Shown: positions 500 through 59,830 of the stretch, in pieces
How the letters are laid out: the number at the start of each line of letters is the position of its first letter
How positions within the stretch are numbered: position 1 is the stretch's first letter
Source of the DNA: Candidatus Altimarinota bacterium
GTDB taxonomy: Bacteria > Patescibacteriota > Gracilibacteria > CAIRYL01
Reading direction: 5' to 3'
DNA: 64,000 nucleotides
NCBI GenBank assembly: GCA_965250085.1
Contig: OZ252287.1
Location: forward strand, 1,120,001-1,184,000
The notes under the pieces: model-generated
What the model was told of the DNA's origin: nothing
The model's input: only the letters and a program-made list of their open reading frames with translations
Databases searched by the model: none
Position numbers and translations under genes: made by a program

Positions 500-599
500 G
501 AAATAATATTGAAAACGAAAGAATTATACGCTTTTTCAAGAATTGATGAATTCAATTTCTTCTTTCATTTGGCATTGTTCATTTGTAATTCGTAATTGA

Positions 600-1724
600 T
601 TATGCACTCGTTTTAAAAAGACATACTTCTCCATCCTGCATTATATATTCTTTGCCTTCACTACGCACGAGACCTTTTTCACGACAATGGGTCCAGCCTT
701 TATGTTCTACAAAATCCTTCCATCCTGTTACATCAGCTTTAATGAAATGTTTTTCAAAGTCAGTATGAATGATGCCAGCGCACTGAGGGACCGTAGATCC
801 TTTTTTGAATGTCCACGATCGCGCTTCTTTTTCACCAGCAGTGAAATAACTTTGCAATCCAAGAAGTTCATACGCGCTGCGGATCACCGAAGCAAGTCCG
901 CTTTGTTTTCCTCCAGAGGCGGATCCACCTTCGGCGGACATTCCGAGGCTCTCTAAATACTCTGTTGCTTCTTCATCAGAAAAACTCACGAGGTCCGCTT
1001 CTATTTTTGCCGAAATCGGAATCAGAATTTCGTCTGCACCTACTCCTGCTTTTTGCTTTGCCGCACGTATATCAAAGCTCGATATCTCTGTTTCGCTTAC
1101 ATTGGCAAGAAAGAGGAATGGCTTTGTGGTCAGGAGATGTAGTTCCCTGAGAAGTGGCAATTCATCTTCTGTGAATTCTAGTGAACTCGCCCTGTCACCA
1201 TTTTGCAATGCCTGTTCAATACGCTGACACATTTCATATTTGAGAGCGGCTGTTTTATCCCCGCTCTTTTTTTCTTTCCCGAGACGCTGAATATTTTTTC
1301 CCACTGTCTGGAGGTCAGCCAAAATAAGTTCGGTCACAATCACCTCCATATCACTTTTGGGATCAACATTTCCGTGTACATGATGGACATCAGTATCTTC
1401 AAAAAACCTGAGGACCATAGCGATCGCATTGCATTCGCCAATATGATGAAGGAACTGATTTCCGAGACCTTCTCCTTTGGATGCTCCTTTGACAAGTCCT
1501 GCAATATCTACAAATTCAACGACAGAAGGAATCACCTTTTGAGGACTTACGACTTTTGCAATCTTCTCCAGTCTCTCATCCGGTACATTCACTATTCCCA
1601 CATTGGGATCAATGGTACAGAATGGAAAATTTTCTGCCGCGGCAGATTCTGACTTGGTAAGCGCATTAAAAAGGGTGGATTTTCCCACATTTGGCAGACC
1701 AACAATTCCAATTTGAAGCCCCAT
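600..1724 (-). CDS. ychF: Redox-regulated ATPase YchF with a 10-aa insertion
   Basis: GIVGLPNVGKSTLFNALT, NFPFCTIDPN, DIAGLVKGASKGEGLGNQFL, C-terminal TGS domain. Confidence 0.97.
   Translation of the reverse strand: MGLQIGIVGLPNVGKSTLFNALTKSESAAAENFPFCTIDPNVGIVNVPDERLEKIAKVVSPQKVIPSVVEFVDIAGLVKGASKGEGLGNQFLHHIGECNAIAMVLRFFEDTDVHHVHGNVDPKSDMEVIVTELILADLQTVGKNIQRLGKEKKSGDKTAALKYEMCQRIEQALQNGDRASSLEFTEDELPLLRELHLLTTKPFLFLANVSETEISSFDIRAAKQKAGVGADEILIPISAKIEADLVSFSDEEATEYLESLGMSAEGGSASGGKQSGLASVIRSAYELLGLQSYFTAGEKEARSWTFKKGSTVPQCAGIIHTDFEKHFIKADVTGWKDFVEHKGWTHCREKGLVRSEGKEYIMQDGEVCLFKTSA
909..938 (-). repeat. 30-bp tandem mini-palindrome inserted in frame in ychF
   Basis: Coding strand TCCGCC-GAA-GGTGGA-TCCGCC-TCT-GGAGGA, translated SAEGGSASGG. 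Confidence 0.75.
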
Positions 1725-3988: not shown

Positions 3989-4357
3989 ATGGTCACAGAA
4001 CTTACCGCCGTCGGAGATGAAGTGAATTTTGTTCAAATTGCGAATATGTTTGTAGCATTGGCGATCATTGTCGCTGGAGCCCTTTCAGTCATTTACATTT
4101 TTATTGGCGGGATTTCTTTTATTCTTTCTGCGGGGCAAGAAGACAAGATCAAGAGCGCTGTACACACCATTCGATATGCAGTCATAGGACTCATTGTTAC
4201 GATTTTTGCAATTGTTGCCGTACAAATTATCGGACGGCTGTTTGGATTTGACCTTATCCCATATTTGAGTTGGGATGGGATGAAAGACATGACGTCTGTG
4301 ATTTTTGATCGACTCTTGGGACCTGGTGGAAATACTTCTGGTGGAGGATTTCAGTAA
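3989..4357 (+). CDS. CPR-type pilin (TrbC/VirB2-like)
   Basis: Two hydrophobic segments around GGISFILSAGQEDKIKSAVHTIRYAVIGL. Confidence 0.75.
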   Translation: MVTELTAVGDEVNFVQIANMFVALAIIVAGALSVIYIFIGGISFILSAGQEDKIKSAVHTIRYAVIGLIVTIFAIVAVQIIGRLFGFDLIPYLSWDGMKDMTSVIFDRLLGPGGNTSGGGFQ

Positions 4358-4395
4358 TCAATTACGAATTACAAATTACAAGTTACGAATGAAAT
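4358..4395. repeat. Heptamer tandem repeat
   Basis: AATTACG AATTACA AATTACA AGTTACG. Confidence 0.7.
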
Positions 4396-29037: not shown

Positions 29038-29077
29038 GTCCGTCACGGCCATGCCTACGGCAGACAGGCGGACAAGC
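29038..29077. repeat. GC-rich mini-palindromic element in the rplD-rplW spacer
   Basis: GTCCG...CGGAC enclosing CTACGGCAGACAGGCG, 15/16 identical to 59012-59027. Confidence 0.65.
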
Positions 29078-57085: not shown

Positions 57086-57316
57086 ATGATCACAGAGTGG
57101 ATAGTATATTCTGTTTTCATCATCGTTTCTTTTTCCATTTTTTGGATTGTAGTTCGACGAGTAAAAGAACATTTTAATAGGTATCCACTCGAGGATAATG
57201 ATAAAAAAATAAGTAAAATCTGGGGTGGACCACAAAAAAAGCTTCTTATCGTCTATTTTCTCTGTCTGGTTATCTTCTCAATCTTTTTTGCTGTTCTTAT
57301 CTATATTCTCAGATGA
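57086..57316 (+). CDS. Small two-TM membrane protein
   Basis: Two hydrophobic segments; ATGA overlap with guaA. Confidence 0.6.
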   Translation: MITEWIVYSVFIIVSFSIFWIVVRRVKEHFNRYPLEDNDKKISKIWGGPQKKLLIVYFLCLVIFSIFFAVLIYILR

Positions 57317-59247
57317 ATAGGTCTATTGTAGTTTTGGATTTTGGCGGGCAATATGCGCACCTGATTGCCAATCGTATACGTCGTCTGGGTGCATATTCAG
57401 AAATTTACTCTCATGATGTATCGGCTGAAGAGCTCAAAAAAAATGAAGTGGCTGGCATTATCCTCTCAGGAGGCCCCAAGAGTGTTTACGCGGAGGACGG
57501 CCTTCACGCCAATGTGGATATATTTGACTTAGACATCCCAGTATTGGGTATTTGCTATGGTCATCAGCTTCTGGTACACGCACTGGGCGGAGAGGTAGAA
57601 ATGGGGTCAGTTCATGAATTTGGGAAGAGTGACTTTGTTCTCAAAAAAAAGGATGGAGTATGGAAGGATTTTCCTAACACCTCTACTGCATGGATGAGTC
57701 ATGTAGACAAAGTGATCGCGCTTCCCAGGGGATTTGAAATCACGGGAACCACATCTGATTGCAGTGCGGCAGCAATAGCATGTTTTGATCGTAATATCTT
57801 TGGAGTGCAGTTTCATCCAGAAGTAACCCATACTCAGCAGGGGATGCTTTTGCTTCAGAATTTTGTAGAAATTTGTGGAGTCCAAAACACATGGAAGATA
57901 GATGATTTTGTCGCACAAGAAATCCAAAATATTCAGAAGCAAGCTGCAGGAAAAAATGTATTTCTTTTGGTTTCTGGAGGGGTGGATTCGAGTGTGACAT
58001 TTGCCCTTCTGGAAAAAGCACTTGGAAAAGAGCGAATATATGGACTCTTTGTAGACCATGGACTCATGAGGAAAGATGAAGTGAATCAAGTGCCGGCAAT
58101 GATAGCCGAAGCGGGATTTGATAATCTGCATGTTGCAAAAGAAGAGAATCGATTTTTAAAAAACCTAGAAGGCATCACTGATCCGGAAGAAAAACGAATG
58201 ATCATTGGAAACACATTTTTGGATGTTCAGGAACAAGTCACAACAGACCTCGATTTACATCCGGATGAATGGCTTCTGGGACAGGGAACCATTTACCCCG
58301 ACACTATTGAAAGTGGTGGAACCAAGCACGCGGCAAAAATAAAAACTCATCACAATAGAGTAGAGAGAGTTCAAAAGCTTATAGATGCCGGAAAGATTAT
58401 TGAACCACTCAAAGATCTCTACAAAGATGAGGTGCGTGAAGTAGGACTCAAACTAGGGCTTCCCAAAAAAATGATTGAGCGACATCCATTTCCGGGTCCC
58501 GGATTAGGAGTCAGGATTCTCTGTTCTCAAAATGCCGACAGTCTCCCCAACACCCCAGAGATAGAGTCTGGTATTCAAAAAAAATTTGCAGACATAGAAG
58601 CACGAGTGCTCCCTCTTAAGTCCGTCGGAGTGCAGGGAGATTTTCGCAGTTATCGACATCCAGTCGTTCTGTTTTCTAAAAATGAATACTCCTGGGACAC
58701 GCTTGATGAAATAGCAACCAATATCCCGAATTCATTTCCAGAGATCAATCGAGTATTGCTCAGTCTTTCGCATTTTTCTAAACTGTCTGTACCAAAGGTG
58801 ACTCCATCATTTATGACCAAAGATCGGATAGCTTTACTCCAAGAGGCAGATGCCATCATTCGCATGATACTGGAAAAAGAAGACTTCAAAGGAAGAGAAA
58901 ATATCTGGCAATTCCCCGTGGTGCTCTGTCCATTAGAGTTTGGAGAGGGGAGTGGAGAGAAGGGAGAAGAGAAATCAATTACGAATTACGAATCATCCAC
59001 CTTTGCTAAGGCTACGGCGGACAGGCGAATTACGGAAAAAAACAGAGAACACACTTCGAAATCTCGCGAGACAATTATTTTACGTCCCGTTGAAAGCCAA
59101 GAGGCCATGACGGCATCATTTGCTCGTATTCCAGGTAACATATTACTCAAAATGAGTAAGAGCATCATGAATGAACTTGAAGGAAAAGTTTCAGCGGTCT
59201 TTTTTGATATCACCAATAAACCGCCGGGAACGATTGAGTGGGAATAG
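57313..59247 (+). CDS. guaA: GMP synthase (glutamine-hydrolysing), long form, with repeat-derived insertion
   Basis: LDFGGQY, GICYGHQ, QFHPE, SGGVDS, IKTHHN, HPFPGPGL, KPPGTIEWE. Confidence 0.97.
   Translation: MNRSIVVLDFGGQYAHLIANRIRRLGAYSEIYSHDVSAEELKKNEVAGIILSGGPKSVYAEDGLHANVDIFDLDIPVLGICYGHQLLVHALGGEVEMGSVHEFGKSDFVLKKKDGVWKDFPNTSTAWMSHVDKVIALPRGFEITGTTSDCSAAAIACFDRNIFGVQFHPEVTHTQQGMLLLQNFVEICGVQNTWKIDDFVAQEIQNIQKQAAGKNVFLLVSGGVDSSVTFALLEKALGKERIYGLFVDHGLMRKDEVNQVPAMIAEAGFDNLHVAKEENRFLKNLEGITDPEEKRMIIGNTFLDVQEQVTTDLDLHPDEWLLGQGTIYPDTIESGGTKHAAKIKTHHNRVERVQKLIDAGKIIEPLKDLYKDEVREVGLKLGLPKKMIERHPFPGPGLGVRILCSQNADSLPNTPEIESGIQKKFADIEARVLPLKSVGVQGDFRSYRHPVVLFSKNEYSWDTLDEIATNIPNSFPEINRVLLSLSHFSKLSVPKVTPSFMTKDRIALLQEADAIIRMILEKEDFKGRENIWQFPVVLCPLEFGEGSGEKGEEKSITNYESSTFAKATADRRITEKNREHTSKSRETIILRPVESQEAMTASFARIPGNILLKMSKSIMNELEGKVSAVFFDITNKPPGTIEWE
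58942..59035 (+). repeat. Composite repeat insertion inside guaA
   Basis: Purine 7-mers (GGAGAGG GGAGTGG AGAGAAG GGAGAAG), AATTACG units and a TCCACC...GCTACGGCGGACAGGCG hairpin element. Confidence 0.72.
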
Positions 59248-59335
59248 ATTTTTTAGAAGCAATTGCATTCCAAAAAGAATCCTCTATTTCACAATCTTAT
59301 ATTTTCAGAAAAGATCAGCAATCATGTACTTGTTT

Positions 59336-59830
59336 TTAGCAATTGCAACCTGCTCCTGATCGCGTTGTATCAAATTCATCAGGAAGCCCCCATCCCTTTC
59401 GAACTCTCCCGATAGCATCTGATAATAGTCGAAGGAGATCTCCTTTTTTGTTTCCACCAAATTTAGACTCGGCATCGCGATCAATTGCATATTGTACTGC
59501 AAGGAGATCATTGCCTACTTCTCCTGTTTTTGGTTGAAGATTCTGAATACTTGCATTCTCACCAATTACTCCGGCTTTCTGCAGTCGGTCAAATACCCCA
59601 AGAGAAGGAAGATCGGTTGTTTGTGACAGCATGTTTTGTACGTCTGGGTTGTTTAAAAATTCAAAAATAGTGTTGATGTCAGTAATATCAACTGATCCTT
59701 CTACAACAGCAGCTGCTCGGGATCCAACATCTTCAGTTCCAGCTACTTCTGTAATAAGTGGAGCAGCAGCAGATGCTGCTTCTGGGTCAGAACCGACGTG
59801 AAGAGGAAGGTTTTCATTAGAATTACTCAT
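59336..59830 (-). CDS. Hypothetical protein
   Basis: Start set at MSNSNENLP; upstream TTGACA-17-TAGTAT. Confidence 0.6.
   Translation of the reverse strand: MSNSNENLPLHVGSDPEAASAAAPLITEVAGTEDVGSRAAAVVEGSVDITDINTIFEFLNNPDVQNMLSQTTDLPSLGVFDRLQKAGVIGENASIQNLQPKTGEVGNDLLAVQYAIDRDAESKFGGNKKGDLLRLLSDAIGRVRKGWGLPDEFDTTRSGAGCNC

What the first reader, a model, noticed from the sequence alone, without database searches (positions are those of the whole stretch)
58942..59070. Three-layer nested repeat insertion translated within GuaA
Seen: between PVVLCPLEF and ETIILRPV lies GEGSGEKGEEKSITNYESSTFAKATADRRITEKNREHTSKSR. Its DNA is purine 7-mers, then AATTACG AATTACG AAT, then a hairpin element CATCCACCTTTGCTAAGGCTACGGCGGACAGGCG, then AATTACG resumes. 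The same heptamer is intergenic at 4360 and the same hairpin tail is at 29055. The frame is preserved and the KPPGTIEWE end is intact. Inference: repeats that normally occupy spacers accumulate in a permissive loop of an essential enzyme, a route to new peptide sequence. With ychF, this suggests a little-described system of coding-compatible mini-elements.
Basis: partly seen in the sequence, partly recalled or inferred. Interest (0 to 1): 0.74.

Follow-up and report, generated by a model that had tools for sequence, protein, structure and literature searches.

The report
Repeat DNA translated inside GMP synthase
A small-genome groundwater-type bacterium carries a 117-base piece of its own spacer repeats, read in frame, in a floppy loop of an essential nucleotide-synthesis enzyme, which is a clear new example of a known kind of event and not a new system.

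Summary
guaA (window 57313-59247, 644 aa) carries a 39-residue in-frame insert (S547-R585, window 58951-59067). It is absent from 27 of 30 aligned GuaA proteins, including the closest relatives.

The core of the insert is dispersed repeat DNA of this genome: AATTACG heptamer units interrupted by a 32-nt hairpin (TCCACC...GGCGGACAGGCG). The same heptamer-hairpin-heptamer arrangement recurs at two other loci with the same junctions. The purine-rich head and the 33-nt tail are not dispersed repeats.

AlphaFold gives pLDDT below 50 and coil for exactly this stretch, between two confident strands. Two other lineages have unrelated inserts in the same loop.

Independent events of the same kind exist:
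- GuaA of the closest relative, at another site (4x AATTACG plus a different hairpin repeat).
- YchF of this genome (two 15-nt mini-hairpins, 30 nt).
- IleRS of this genome (about 3.4 heptamer units).

The genome encodes two REP-associated tyrosine transposases, which are plausible mobilisers of the hairpins.

The arrays are strongly depleted from coding sequence (7 of 38 in ORFs that cover 86% of the genome). These are spacer repeats with rare tolerated survivors, not a dedicated coding-compatible system.

Closest analogues are Rickettsia RPEs, cyanobacterial STRR/SDR repeats and REP/RAYT. The host is in the Peregrinibacteria/Gracilibacteria (CPR). Interest is moderate.

The parts
57313..59247 (+). 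guaA, glutamine-hydrolysing GMP synthase, 644 aa, single open frame including the insert
   Evidence: ORF. Pfam GATase 157 bits, NAD_synthase-like ATP-PPase, GMP_synt_C 87.6 bits. PDB GuaA hits down to E 5.7e-123. All invariant columns are kept.
58951..59067 (+). Lineage-specific in-frame insert, 117 nt = residues S547-R585. The boundaries are ambiguous by a few residues because the flanks are G/E-rich.
   Evidence: Absent in 27 of 30 aligned GuaA and in relatives' loci L002-L012. pLDDT below 50 for residues 546-582, coil.
58943..58972 (+). Purine-rich stretch (GGAGAGGGGAGTGGAGAGAAGGGAGAAGAG). It looks like a local duplication of the native GGAGARGGG (F-G-E-G codons) and is not a dispersed repeat.
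   Evidence: TRF period 14, 2.1 copies, score 39. Only chance-level hits of 13-19 nt elsewhere in the genome. No such family among the period-7 arrays.
58973..58993 (+). AATC leader plus AATTACG AATTACG AAT (heptamer array, reads S-I-T-N-Y-E)
   Evidence: The same AATCAATTACG... leader heads many intergenic arrays.
58996..59027 (+). REP-like hairpin element TCCACC-loop-GGCGGA-CAGGCG, nested in the heptamer array
   Evidence: 3 copies in the genome match the termini pattern, and 0 of 60 relatives do. It belongs to the TCCRCC...GGYGGA family (22 hits against 3 in the control) and the GGYGGACARG family (19 against 9). Fold.
59028..59034 (+). The heptamer AATTACG resumes after the hairpin
   Evidence: The junction GGCG|AATTACG is the same at genome 939328 and 982962.
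59035..59067 (+). Tail of the insert (GAAAAAAACAGAGAACACACTTCGAAATCTCGC), with no other copy in the genome. Its first bases resemble the right flank of the nested copy at genome 1307798.
4360..4390 (+). Intergenic AATTACG/AATTACA array that starts at the stop codon (TAATC AATTACG...)
584..597 (-). Heptamer array directly after the ychF stop codon (TAATC AATTACG AATTACA)
29055..29076 (+). Intergenic REP-like family member (CTACGGCAGACAGGCGGACAAG), followed by CATTCAT heptamers
909..938 (-). 30-nt in-frame insert in ychF (SAEGGSASGG): two tandem 15-nt mini-hairpins, TCCGCCGAAGGTGGA and TCCGCCTCTGGAGGA
   Evidence: Absent in 7 of 7 aligned relatives.
600..1724 (-). ychF (ribosome-binding ATPase), 374 aa

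Best explanation
The insert is selfish or neutral repeat DNA of this genome that landed in frame in a permissive surface loop of GuaA and is simply translated.

The genome is a 1.37-Mb member of the Peregrinibacteria/Gracilibacteria (CPR), judged from the names that sources give its GuaA homologues. It is rich in tandem heptamers, AATTACG being the commonest unit, and in short GC-rich hairpins of the form TCCRCC-loop-GGCGGACAGG. Both lie mainly between genes.

The hairpins are REP-like and are probably moved by the two REP-associated tyrosine transposases (RAYT) that the genome encodes. That step is inferred. Four hairpin copies sit inside AATTACG arrays.

A heptamer-hairpin-heptamer block entered guaA between the codons for ...FGEG and E(T/S)IILRP. 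It arrived either as one pre-assembled piece, through microhomology with the native GAATCGATTA-like sequence, or as an array that was later hit by the hairpin.

The plus strand of AATTACG has no stop codon in any frame (it reads N-Y-E-L-R-I-T). The total length is 117 nt, which is 39 codons, so the enzyme stays whole. The extra 39 residues form a disordered loop between two strands of the C-terminal dimerisation region.

Selection removes nearly all such hits in genes. The few in tolerant loops persist, most likely by drift.

Shown: the anatomy, the lineage-specificity, the repeat-family membership, the preserved frame and catalytic motifs, and the independent parallel events. Inferred: that the insert is translated, that it is neutral, that RAYT mobilises the hairpins, and the order of events.
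For: 1. Lineage-specific. 27 of 30 aligned GuaA have no residues there. Relatives read FGEGE-SIILRP straight through.

2. Made of this genome's repeats.
- 38 AATTACG arrays against 5 for the reversed unit.
- Period 7 is the commonest TRF period (220 of 1020 rows), and AATTACG (16) plus AATTACA (8) are the top units.
- The hairpin termini pattern has 3 copies in G000. Two of them, at genome 939296 and 982900, lie in AATTACG arrays with the same junctions, AATTA|TCC... and ...GGCG|AATTACG. A fourth nested copy at 1307767 is inverted.

3. Permissive loop.
- pLDDT is below 50 and the chain is coil for residues 546-582, in a model with mean pLDDT 85 and pTM 0.83.
- P0068 and P0120 carry unrelated inserts of about 28-43 aa in the same loop.

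4. The gene looks functional.
- One frame, with GATase C81/H168/E170, the SGGVDS P-loop and KPPGTIEWE all kept.
- It is the only full guaA in the genome. An intact IMPDH gene is present.

5. Independent parallels.
- G004 GuaA has 4x AATTACG plus a different hairpin at another site. That hairpin recurs at 3 other G004 loci at 91-95% identity.
- G000 YchF has a 30-nt insert.
- G000 IleRS has PNNELRVT, encoded by heptamers, absent in 6 of 9 relatives. G005 has ITN-DKLQM at the same site.

6. RAYT. NF047646 scores 95.6 and 82.4 bits against a cut-off of 80. A family member (TTCCTCCTTCGGCGGACAAG) lies about 55 nt upstream of one RAYT start codon, and another about 900 nt downstream of that gene.

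7. Depletion from genes. 7 of 38 arrays lie inside ATG-ORFs of 120 aa or more, which cover 86% of the genome (binomial p 2e-20).

8. Not an assembly error. Contigs of 4 runs are identical over the stretch.
Against: - There is no RNA or peptide evidence that the insert is retained. No RNA run is on record.
- Low pLDDT is partly an automatic result of a segment that has no homologues in the alignment, so 'disordered' is weakly shown.
- The hairpin itself folds only modestly (z -1.2 and -1.8).
- The RAYT link is circumstantial. The flanking copies are in the same orientation and not inverted, the control count for the 10-mer motif is not small (19 against 9), and no consistent target sequence is seen at copies that are not nested.
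- The three copies with the same junctions may be copies of one composite, so they do not prove target specificity.
- The purine head and the 33-nt tail (about half of the insert) are not explained by any repeat family.
- All read support comes from one sample.
- No closer strain was found to date the event.
Confidence: 0.8

Rival explanations
1. The insert is functional. Either it is a contingency switch, in which slippage of the 7-nt units shifts the frame and turns GuaA off and on, or it is an adaptive new loop, for example a new interaction surface.
For: Heptamer units are not a multiple of 3, so a change of one unit would truncate the essential C-terminus. G004 carries 4 perfect units inside guaA. 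The same loop has been hit repeatedly in other lineages, and IleRS was hit at one site in two genera.
Against: There are only 2.4 units here, interrupted by the hairpin. No length variant appears in contigs of 4 runs, although contigs drop rare variants. guaA is single-copy, and the pathway gene guaB is intact. The peptide has no relative in any other protein (1 hit, itself, among 4 candidates). The inserts differ completely between lineages, which fits tolerance better than selection.
Confidence: 0.07
2. The insert is removed before the mature enzyme forms, as an intron-like RNA element, an intein, or by translational bypass.
For: It contains a hairpin, and it interrupts a conserved enzyme at a sharp boundary.
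Against: No Rfam family matches at E up to 1 on either strand of 58700-59300. Pfam finds no intein or Hint domain. At 39 aa it is far too short for an intein. The frame is open, so no bypass is needed. The analogous YchF insert is only 10 aa.
Confidence: 0.03
3. The insert is an artefact, or the gene is dead: a mis-assembly through repeats, or a guaA pseudogene on its way out.
For: Repeats attract assembly errors. This is a reduced genome that may import nucleotides. The relative G001 has an in-frame TAG in its guaA.
Against: Four separately assembled runs give contigs of 2.4-35 kb that cover the stretch with 0 differences, though all are from one sample. The paralogous copy at genome 939284 assembles separately with its own flanks (table 7). 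The frame is open for 644 codons and every invariant residue is kept.
Confidence: 0.03
4. The insert arose in place, without transposition of a block. The native GAATCGATTA-like codons seeded a heptamer array by slippage, and the hairpin inserted later, so these were separate events inside guaA.
For: The ancestral sequence (G004: GGAGAAGGGGAATCGATTATT) matches the left edge of the array (GGAGAAGAGAAATCAATTACG) at 16 of 21 positions by my reading. The IleRS array ends in the native-looking AATGAAG(AA). The purine head looks like a local duplication.
Against: The heptamer-hairpin-heptamer block has identical junctions at three loci. The alignment with the 939 locus extends over about 98 nt including a purine-rich leader (score 93). 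The right flank AATTACGGAWAAAAA is shared with the 1307 copy. All this fits copying of a composite.
Confidence: 0.25

Closest known systems
[quoted passage not shown] 2000, 2002, as described in review PMC10969869; passages read)
   Same: Dispersed palindromic repeats are inserted in frame in unrelated housekeeping genes of a small-genome bacterium. They are absent from orthologues and are thought to sit where the fold tolerates them.
   Different: RPEs are about 150 bp and each family encodes a conserved peptide. Here the units are a 7-nt tandem repeat plus hairpins of 15-32 nt. The peptide is unique. Most copies are intergenic. No sequence relationship was tested. The host is a CPR bacterium, not an alphaproteobacterium.
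Cyanobacterial STRR heptamer arrays with nested small dispersed repeats (SDR; Elhai et al. 2008, Genome Res 18:1484). Recalled; the paper is not held. It is cited in PMC4390886.
   Same: Tandem heptamers between genes, with small GC-rich hairpin repeats inserted precisely inside them. The very same unit, AATTACG, occurs in many Nostocales records. Small GC-rich elements sit inside those arrays in loci L021, L060, L066 and L069, which names as Nostoc, Anabaena and Atlanticothrix records.
   Different: The phylum is different and the genome is 5-7 times smaller. The hairpin sequences are different (TCCRCC...GGCGGACAGG). Here the composite is seen inside essential coding genes. I could not compare with the published SDR consensus sequences.
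REP / REPIN elements and their RAYT transposases (NCBIfam NF047646)
   Same: Short imperfect palindromes in tens of copies, mostly extragenic. The genome encodes RAYT-family proteins that score above the curated cut-off. A family member lies next to one RAYT gene.
   Different: The copy number is low (about 15-22). No inverted REP pair flanking the RAYT and no REPIN doublet was shown. Nesting in heptamer arrays and in-frame coding copies are not typical REP features, by my recollection.
Simple-sequence contingency loci (heptanucleotide SSRs, e.g. Haemophilus; seen in search listings only)
   Same: Tandem 7-nt units inside or next to genes.
   Different: There are few units, they are interrupted, and they sit in a housekeeping enzyme. 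No length variation was seen.

Membership tests
GMP synthase, glutamine-hydrolysing (GuaA) | Class-I glutamine amidotransferase domain with the Cys-His-Glu triad | tested here: met
   PF00117 157.1 bits over residues 6-185. C81, H168 and E170 are invariant columns.
GMP synthase, glutamine-hydrolysing (GuaA) | ATP pyrophosphatase domain with the SGGVDS P-loop | tested here: met
   S221-S226 are invariant. PF02540 44 bits. PDB GuaA alignments cover residues 5-448.
GMP synthase, glutamine-hydrolysing (GuaA) | C-terminal dimerisation domain ending in KPPxTIEWE | tested here: met
   PF00958 87.6 bits in 2 stretches, the best over residues 585-643. K636 through E644 are invariant.
RPE-like in-frame selfish repeats (works like; not the Rickettsia families themselves) | The repeat is present at several other loci of the same genome | tested here: met
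RPE-like in-frame selfish repeats (works like; not the Rickettsia families themselves) | In-frame insertion in a conserved gene, absent from orthologues | tested here: met
   GuaA; YchF; IleRS.
RPE-like in-frame selfish repeats (works like; not the Rickettsia families themselves) | The insert lies on the protein surface, away from catalytic sites | tested here: inconclusive
   The AF2 model gives coil with pLDDT below 50 between strands 536-539 and 586-590. No solvent-accessibility calculation was made and no solved structure exists. Low pLDDT is expected for any orphan segment.
RPE-like in-frame selfish repeats (works like; not the Rickettsia families themselves) | Sequence homology to the Rickettsia RPE families | not tested
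   No RPE sequences were on hand. Homology is not expected.
REP / RAYT system | A RAYT (Y1 HUH transposase) gene in the genome | tested here: met
   NF047646 scores 95.6 and 82.4 bits against a cut-off of 80. PF01797 scores 28.4 bits (above its 23-bit cut-off) and 21.5 bits (below it). One search lists 5 matches in G000.
REP / RAYT system | Short imperfect palindromes, over-represented and mainly extragenic | tested here: met
   22 TCCRCC-N(3-45)-GGYGGA hairpins against 3 in the reversed control. By my reading, most clear copies lie outside long ORFs.
REP / RAYT system | The RAYT gene is flanked by its cognate REPs, typically inverted | tested here: inconclusive
   One family member lies about 55 nt upstream of the RAYT at genome 1238737 and another about 900 nt downstream, both in the same orientation. 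Two further 38-nt hairpins lie upstream.
REP / RAYT system | RAYT cleaves or joins its REP | not testable with these tools
   This needs biochemistry.
Cyanobacterial STRR / SDR nested repeats | Intergenic tandem heptamer arrays as a genome-wide feature | tested here: met
   Period 7 accounts for 220 of 1020 TRF rows. 31 of 38 AATTACG arrays lie outside ORFs.
Cyanobacterial STRR / SDR nested repeats | Small hairpin repeats inserted inside the heptamer arrays | tested here: met
   4 nested copies, at genome 939296, 982900, 1178996 and 1307767.
Cyanobacterial STRR / SDR nested repeats | Membership of the published SDR1-8 sequence families, in a heterocystous cyanobacterial host | tested here: not met
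   The host is named Peregrinibacteria/Gracilibacteria by the sources of its GuaA homologues.
Intein / self-splicing intron | Hint or intein domain, or a group I/II intron RNA | tested here: not met
   No such Pfam hit. No Rfam hit at E up to 1.

The most novel reading that the evidence does not exclude
The AATTACG heptamer array is not just slippage debris. It could be the specific landing pad, or the by-product, of a RAYT-type single-strand transposition system. The TCCRCC...GGCGGACAGG hairpin enters the unit at AATTA^CG, as in the 3 copies that share a junction. Genomes of this class with AATTACG arrays almost always carry a full RAYT (8 of 9, against 8 of 52 without arrays). The same 7-nt unit in Nostocales, Bacteroidota, Acidobacteriota, Planctomycetota and others would then point to a conserved, undescribed mechanism. 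Such a mechanism would write heptamer arrays, seed nested mini-elements and, as a side effect, add new peptide loops to essential proteins.
Probability: 0.12. Interest if true: 0.7.

Novelty: new member of a known kind. Interest (0 to 1): 0.42.

Why it matters
This shows that even streamlined CPR genomes (about 1.4 Mb) carry active-looking families of tandem heptamers and REP-like hairpins. These repeats have repeatedly been written, in frame, into universal enzymes: GuaA twice at different sites in sister genera, YchF, and IleRS. The result is lineage-specific disordered loops.

For annotation and phylogenomics, odd 'low-complexity' insertions in CPR marker proteins can be repeat DNA and not sequencing error or new domains.

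For evolution, this is a clean natural series of tolerated insertions that maps permissive loops. It is also a possible source of new peptide sequence.

The finding that the AATTACG unit is shared across phyla, and the link to RAYT at the genome level, are cheap leads to follow on how heptamer arrays arise.

Tried and rejected
- Elhai 2008 could not be read. What I say about SDRs is recalled, apart from one sentence in PMC4390886. Supplements were not opened.
- Literature searches found no paper that links heptamer repeats, or REP/RAYT coding insertions, to CPR lineages. A search for the heptamer string itself gave only primer-like noise. The Peribacteria complete-genome paper (PMC4736985, passages read) describes a different organism (58.5% GC, 1.25 Mb) and mentions only short repeats near the replication origin.
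- Insert peptide against 5.8 billion protein clusters, longer proteins: only the protein itself, 1 of 4 candidates. This is weak evidence, because the search depends on shared words.
- Metagenome-contig scan with the C-terminal 215 aa: 214 pattern matches, none confirmed by tblastn. No closer strain was found to date the insert.
- RNA evidence: no RNA holder is listed. Only contigs of 4 runs from one sample could be laid. These cannot show rare length variants, transcript ends or expression.
- The YchF double mini-hairpin as a class-wide element: 2 of 101 genomes at up to 2 mismatches, namely G000 and one intergenic copy in G093. The 'EGGSASG' shared with the insert in P0013 GuaA therefore cannot be claimed as the same DNA element.
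- RAYT genes next to AATTACG arrays in other phyla: tblastn of both G000 RAYTs against the 120 cross-phylum loci (0.89 Mb) gave no hit. Those arrays also share no flanks. There is therefore no evidence that one mobile element carries the heptamer across phyla.
- The hairpin termini pattern in relatives: 1 of 61 genomes, G000 only.
- I considered and dropped a fold search for the clade's extra GuaA sub-domain and a complex prediction dimer job. Neither would change the reading.
Full report
**What is there**

Window 57313-59247 (+) is a single 644-codon frame. It has a class-I amidotransferase domain, an ATP-pyrophosphatase domain and the GMP-synthase C-terminal domain. It aligns with solved GuaA structures at E values down to 5.7e-123.

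Aligned against relatives, the extra part is residues S547-R585, which is window 58951-59067: 117 nt, or 39 codons.

From left to right the DNA is:
- a purine-rich stretch (TRF period 14, 2.1 copies, score 39);
- AATC plus AATTACG AATTACG AAT;
- a 32-nt element, TCCACCTTTGCTAAGGCTACGGCGGACAGGCG;
- one more AATTACG;
- a 33-nt tail with no other copy in the genome.

**Whose genome**

The window is bases 1,120,001-1,184,000 of a single 1,368,807-bp contig with 40% GC. Sources name the nearest GuaA homologues Candidatus Peregrinibacteria and Gracilibacteria. The host is therefore a CPR/Patescibacteria bacterium with a nucleotide-synthesis pathway. An intact IMPDH gene is also present.

**The insert is lineage-specific, in a loop that tolerates inserts**

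GuaA was found in 25 of 31 genomes searched (the genome itself plus 30 relatives), and the matches jump from about residue 545 to about residue 585 of the query with no DNA in between. The 11 loci I translated read FGEGE-SIILRP or similar.

In a 30-sequence alignment, 27 sequences have nothing at this site. Ours has 39 residues. Two mutually related sequences (P0068 and P0120, 51-52% identical to ours) have unrelated inserts of about 28-43 residues in the same loop.

An AlphaFold2 model built on that alignment (mean pLDDT 85, pTM 0.83) gives pLDDT below 50 and coil for residues 546-582, between confident strands 536-539 and 586-590. Low confidence is expected for any segment without homologues, so this fits a disordered surface loop but does not prove one.

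Relative to solved bacterial enzymes, the whole clade already has about 100 extra residues at this point (query 449-587 against 3 residues in 7sbc). The insert sits at the end of that extra segment.

**The insert is made of the genome's own repeats**

Period 7 is the commonest tandem-repeat period in the genome (220 of 1020 TRF rows). AATTACG (16 rows) and AATTACA (8 rows) are the commonest units. By my own scan there are 38 good AATTACG-type arrays, against 5 for the reversed unit.

The hairpin belongs to a family with arms TCCRCC / GGYGGA (22 copies against 3 in a reversed-sequence control). The arms are often followed by CARG(C) (19 against 9). Most members are 15-nt mini-hairpins.

Three members match the longer termini pattern: the guaA copy, one at genome 939296 and one at 982900. 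The last has further small hairpins in its loop. All three lie in AATTACG arrays with the same junctions, AATTA|TCC... and ...GGCG|AATTACG. A fourth nested copy, at 1307767, is inverted relative to its array.

The guaA block aligns with the 939 locus over about 98 nt, including a purine-rich leader (score 93). It shares the right flank AATTACGGAWAAAAA with the 1307 copy. The heptamer-hairpin-heptamer core may therefore have entered guaA as one composite, and need not have been built there in steps. I put the in-place alternative at about one in four.

As an RNA or DNA fold the hairpin is modest (minus strand -14.2 kcal/mol, z -1.8; plus strand z -1.2).

The purine head is not a dispersed family. 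It looks like a local duplication of the native GGAGARGGG.

**Parallel events**

- The closest relative (G004, 65% identical GuaA) has no insert at this site. About 35 residues further on it has ITNYELRITDNNQPESANPLREPEGSSEPRTAYSRR. That stretch is encoded by four perfect AATTACG units followed by a strong hairpin (-40.4 kcal/mol, z -2.5). The core of that hairpin recurs at three other G004 loci at 91-95% identity, and the heptamers recur at some 35 loci.
- In our genome, ychF (window 600-1724, minus strand) has a 30-nt insert made of exactly two 15-nt mini-hairpins. It reads SAEGGSASGG and is absent in 7 of 7 aligned relatives. Only 8 of the 14 fetched loci passed my motif filter and were aligned.
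- IleRS has PNNELRVT, encoded by AATAACG AATTACG AGTTACG AATGAAG, where 6 of 9 relatives have nothing. G005 has ITN-DKLQM at the same place.
- Other GuaA sequences carry further orphan inserts (P0012 and P0013). I could not see their DNA.

**Why they can be coding**

Read on its plus strand, AATTACG cycles through N-Y-E-L-R-I-T with no stop codon in any frame. The complement has TAA every 21 nt. This can be read directly from the sequence.

All clear arrays inside ORFs are co-oriented with the gene. This is simply what selection allows.

It is not a sign of a system built for coding. Only 7 of 38 arrays lie inside ATG-ORFs of 120 aa or more, although such ORFs cover 86% of the genome (p about 2e-20). 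Two of those seven sit at the very edge of their ORF.

Several arrays begin right at a stop codon (TAATC AATTACG...), as at window 4354 and 600.

**A possible mobiliser**

The genome encodes two proteins that score above the curated cut-off of NCBIfam NF047646, REP-associated tyrosine transposase (95.6 and 82.4 bits against 80), plus weaker fragments. A family member (TTCCTCCTTCGGCGGACAAG) lies about 55 nt upstream of one of these genes and another about 900 nt downstream. Two 38-nt hairpins with the same core lie further upstream. This fits a REP/RAYT relationship but does not show one.

Across 61 genomes of the class (the genome itself plus 60 relatives), RAYT scores above the cut-off in 16. 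AATTACG arrays occur in 9. Eight of those 9 have RAYT, against 8 of the other 52 (Fisher p 3e-5). That figure is not corrected for relatedness or genome size.

**The heptamer is not private**

These include many Nostocales and members of Bacteroidota, Acidobacteriota, Planctomycetota, Ignavibacteria and Chloroflexota. The flanks differ and no RAYT lies nearby.

In loci L021, L060, L066 and L069, which names as Nostoc, Anabaena and Atlanticothrix records, small GC-rich elements are nested in the arrays. As I recall it, this is the STRR/SDR picture described for Nostoc by Elhai et al. 2008.

**Is it real and retained?**

Contigs assembled separately from four runs cover 58500-59400 without a difference, and the 939 paralogue assembles apart with its own flanks. 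All four runs are from one sample, probably the source of this genome.

No Rfam family matches, and there is no intein-type domain. No RNA run is on record, so translation of the insert is inferred from the open frame and the intact downstream motifs.

**Verdict**

The second half does not: this is not a distinct coding-compatible system.

It works like Rickettsia RPEs (review PMC10969869). Its anatomy is like cyanobacterial heptamers with nested small repeats, and there is a REP/RAYT flavour. It is a member of none of those named families by sequence.

I found nothing in print on such insertions in CPR with searches. I rate it a new member of a known kind, of moderate interest.

The boldest reading that the evidence still allows is that heptamer arrays and RAYT-type hairpins form one mechanism shared across phyla.

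Noticed in passing
L138:421-4434 (-) = genome 673420-677433: IleRS of this genome is 1338 aa and has a complete histidine-phosphatase domain (PF00300, 131 bits, residues 579-744) inserted within its class-I synthetase catalytic domain. Relatives also have open frames of 1220-1490 aa, so this may be a clade feature.
   Followed up: partly
L003:3075-3090 (G001 guaA): The GuaA gene of relative G001 has an in-frame TAG (…EGK*RVWQFP…), about 20 codons upstream of the position where our insert sits. The frame continues to KPPGTIEWE. This could be a pseudogene, a sequencing error or a readthrough.
   Followed up: no
L016-L135 (public genome records): Exact (AATTACG)x3 occurs in at least 120 stretches from many phyla: Nostocales, Bacteroidota, Acidobacteriota, Planctomycetota, Ignavibacteria, Chloroflexota. 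The flanks are unrelated, and other heptamer arrays are often adjacent. Why this unit recurs is unexplained.
   Followed up: partly
Genomes G000-G060: At genome level, AATTACG arrays go with RAYT genes that score above the cut-off: 8 of 9 against 8 of 52 (Fisher p 3e-5). This is uncorrected for phylogeny and genome size.
   Followed up: partly
window 597-600 and 4354-4360: Heptamer arrays start exactly at the stop codon of the upstream gene (TAA-TC-AATTACG...), so the stop codon is part of a shared array leader.
   Followed up: no
window 58993-59025 (run X4, record 10): A 1259-nt contig of depth 2, from the same sample and with GC-rich unrelated flanks, carries a 33-nt match (3 differences) to the hairpin element. 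It may be a copy in another organism of the community.
   Followed up: no
Alignment A1: P0012, P0013, P0068, P0120: Other GuaA proteins of the class have orphan inserts at four different sites. P0013 has ...HLEGGSASGRVD between the two catalytic domains, sharing EGGSASG with the YchF insert of this genome. P0012 has LSPPLRGGLGG... Their DNA could not be fetched.
   Followed up: partly
L177 (G093:C6:7935-7954): In a genome of another family, a double mini-hairpin (TTCCTCCAAAGGCGGATCCGCCTCTGGCGGAGG) lies between genes inside GTAGCTT heptamer repeats. The architecture is the same but the heptamer differs.
   Followed up: partly
L137 = genome 927500-930000: Next to the RAYT gene at 928331-928867 (-) lies a truncated duplicate of its first ~80 codons (928921-929196).
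   Followed up: no
window 57313-59247, residues 449-545: GuaA of this whole class has about 100 extra residues between the ATP-PPase core and the last C-terminal strands, compared with solved bacterial enzymes. I did not compare this extra sub-domain with the eukaryotic GMPS duplication.
   Followed up: no
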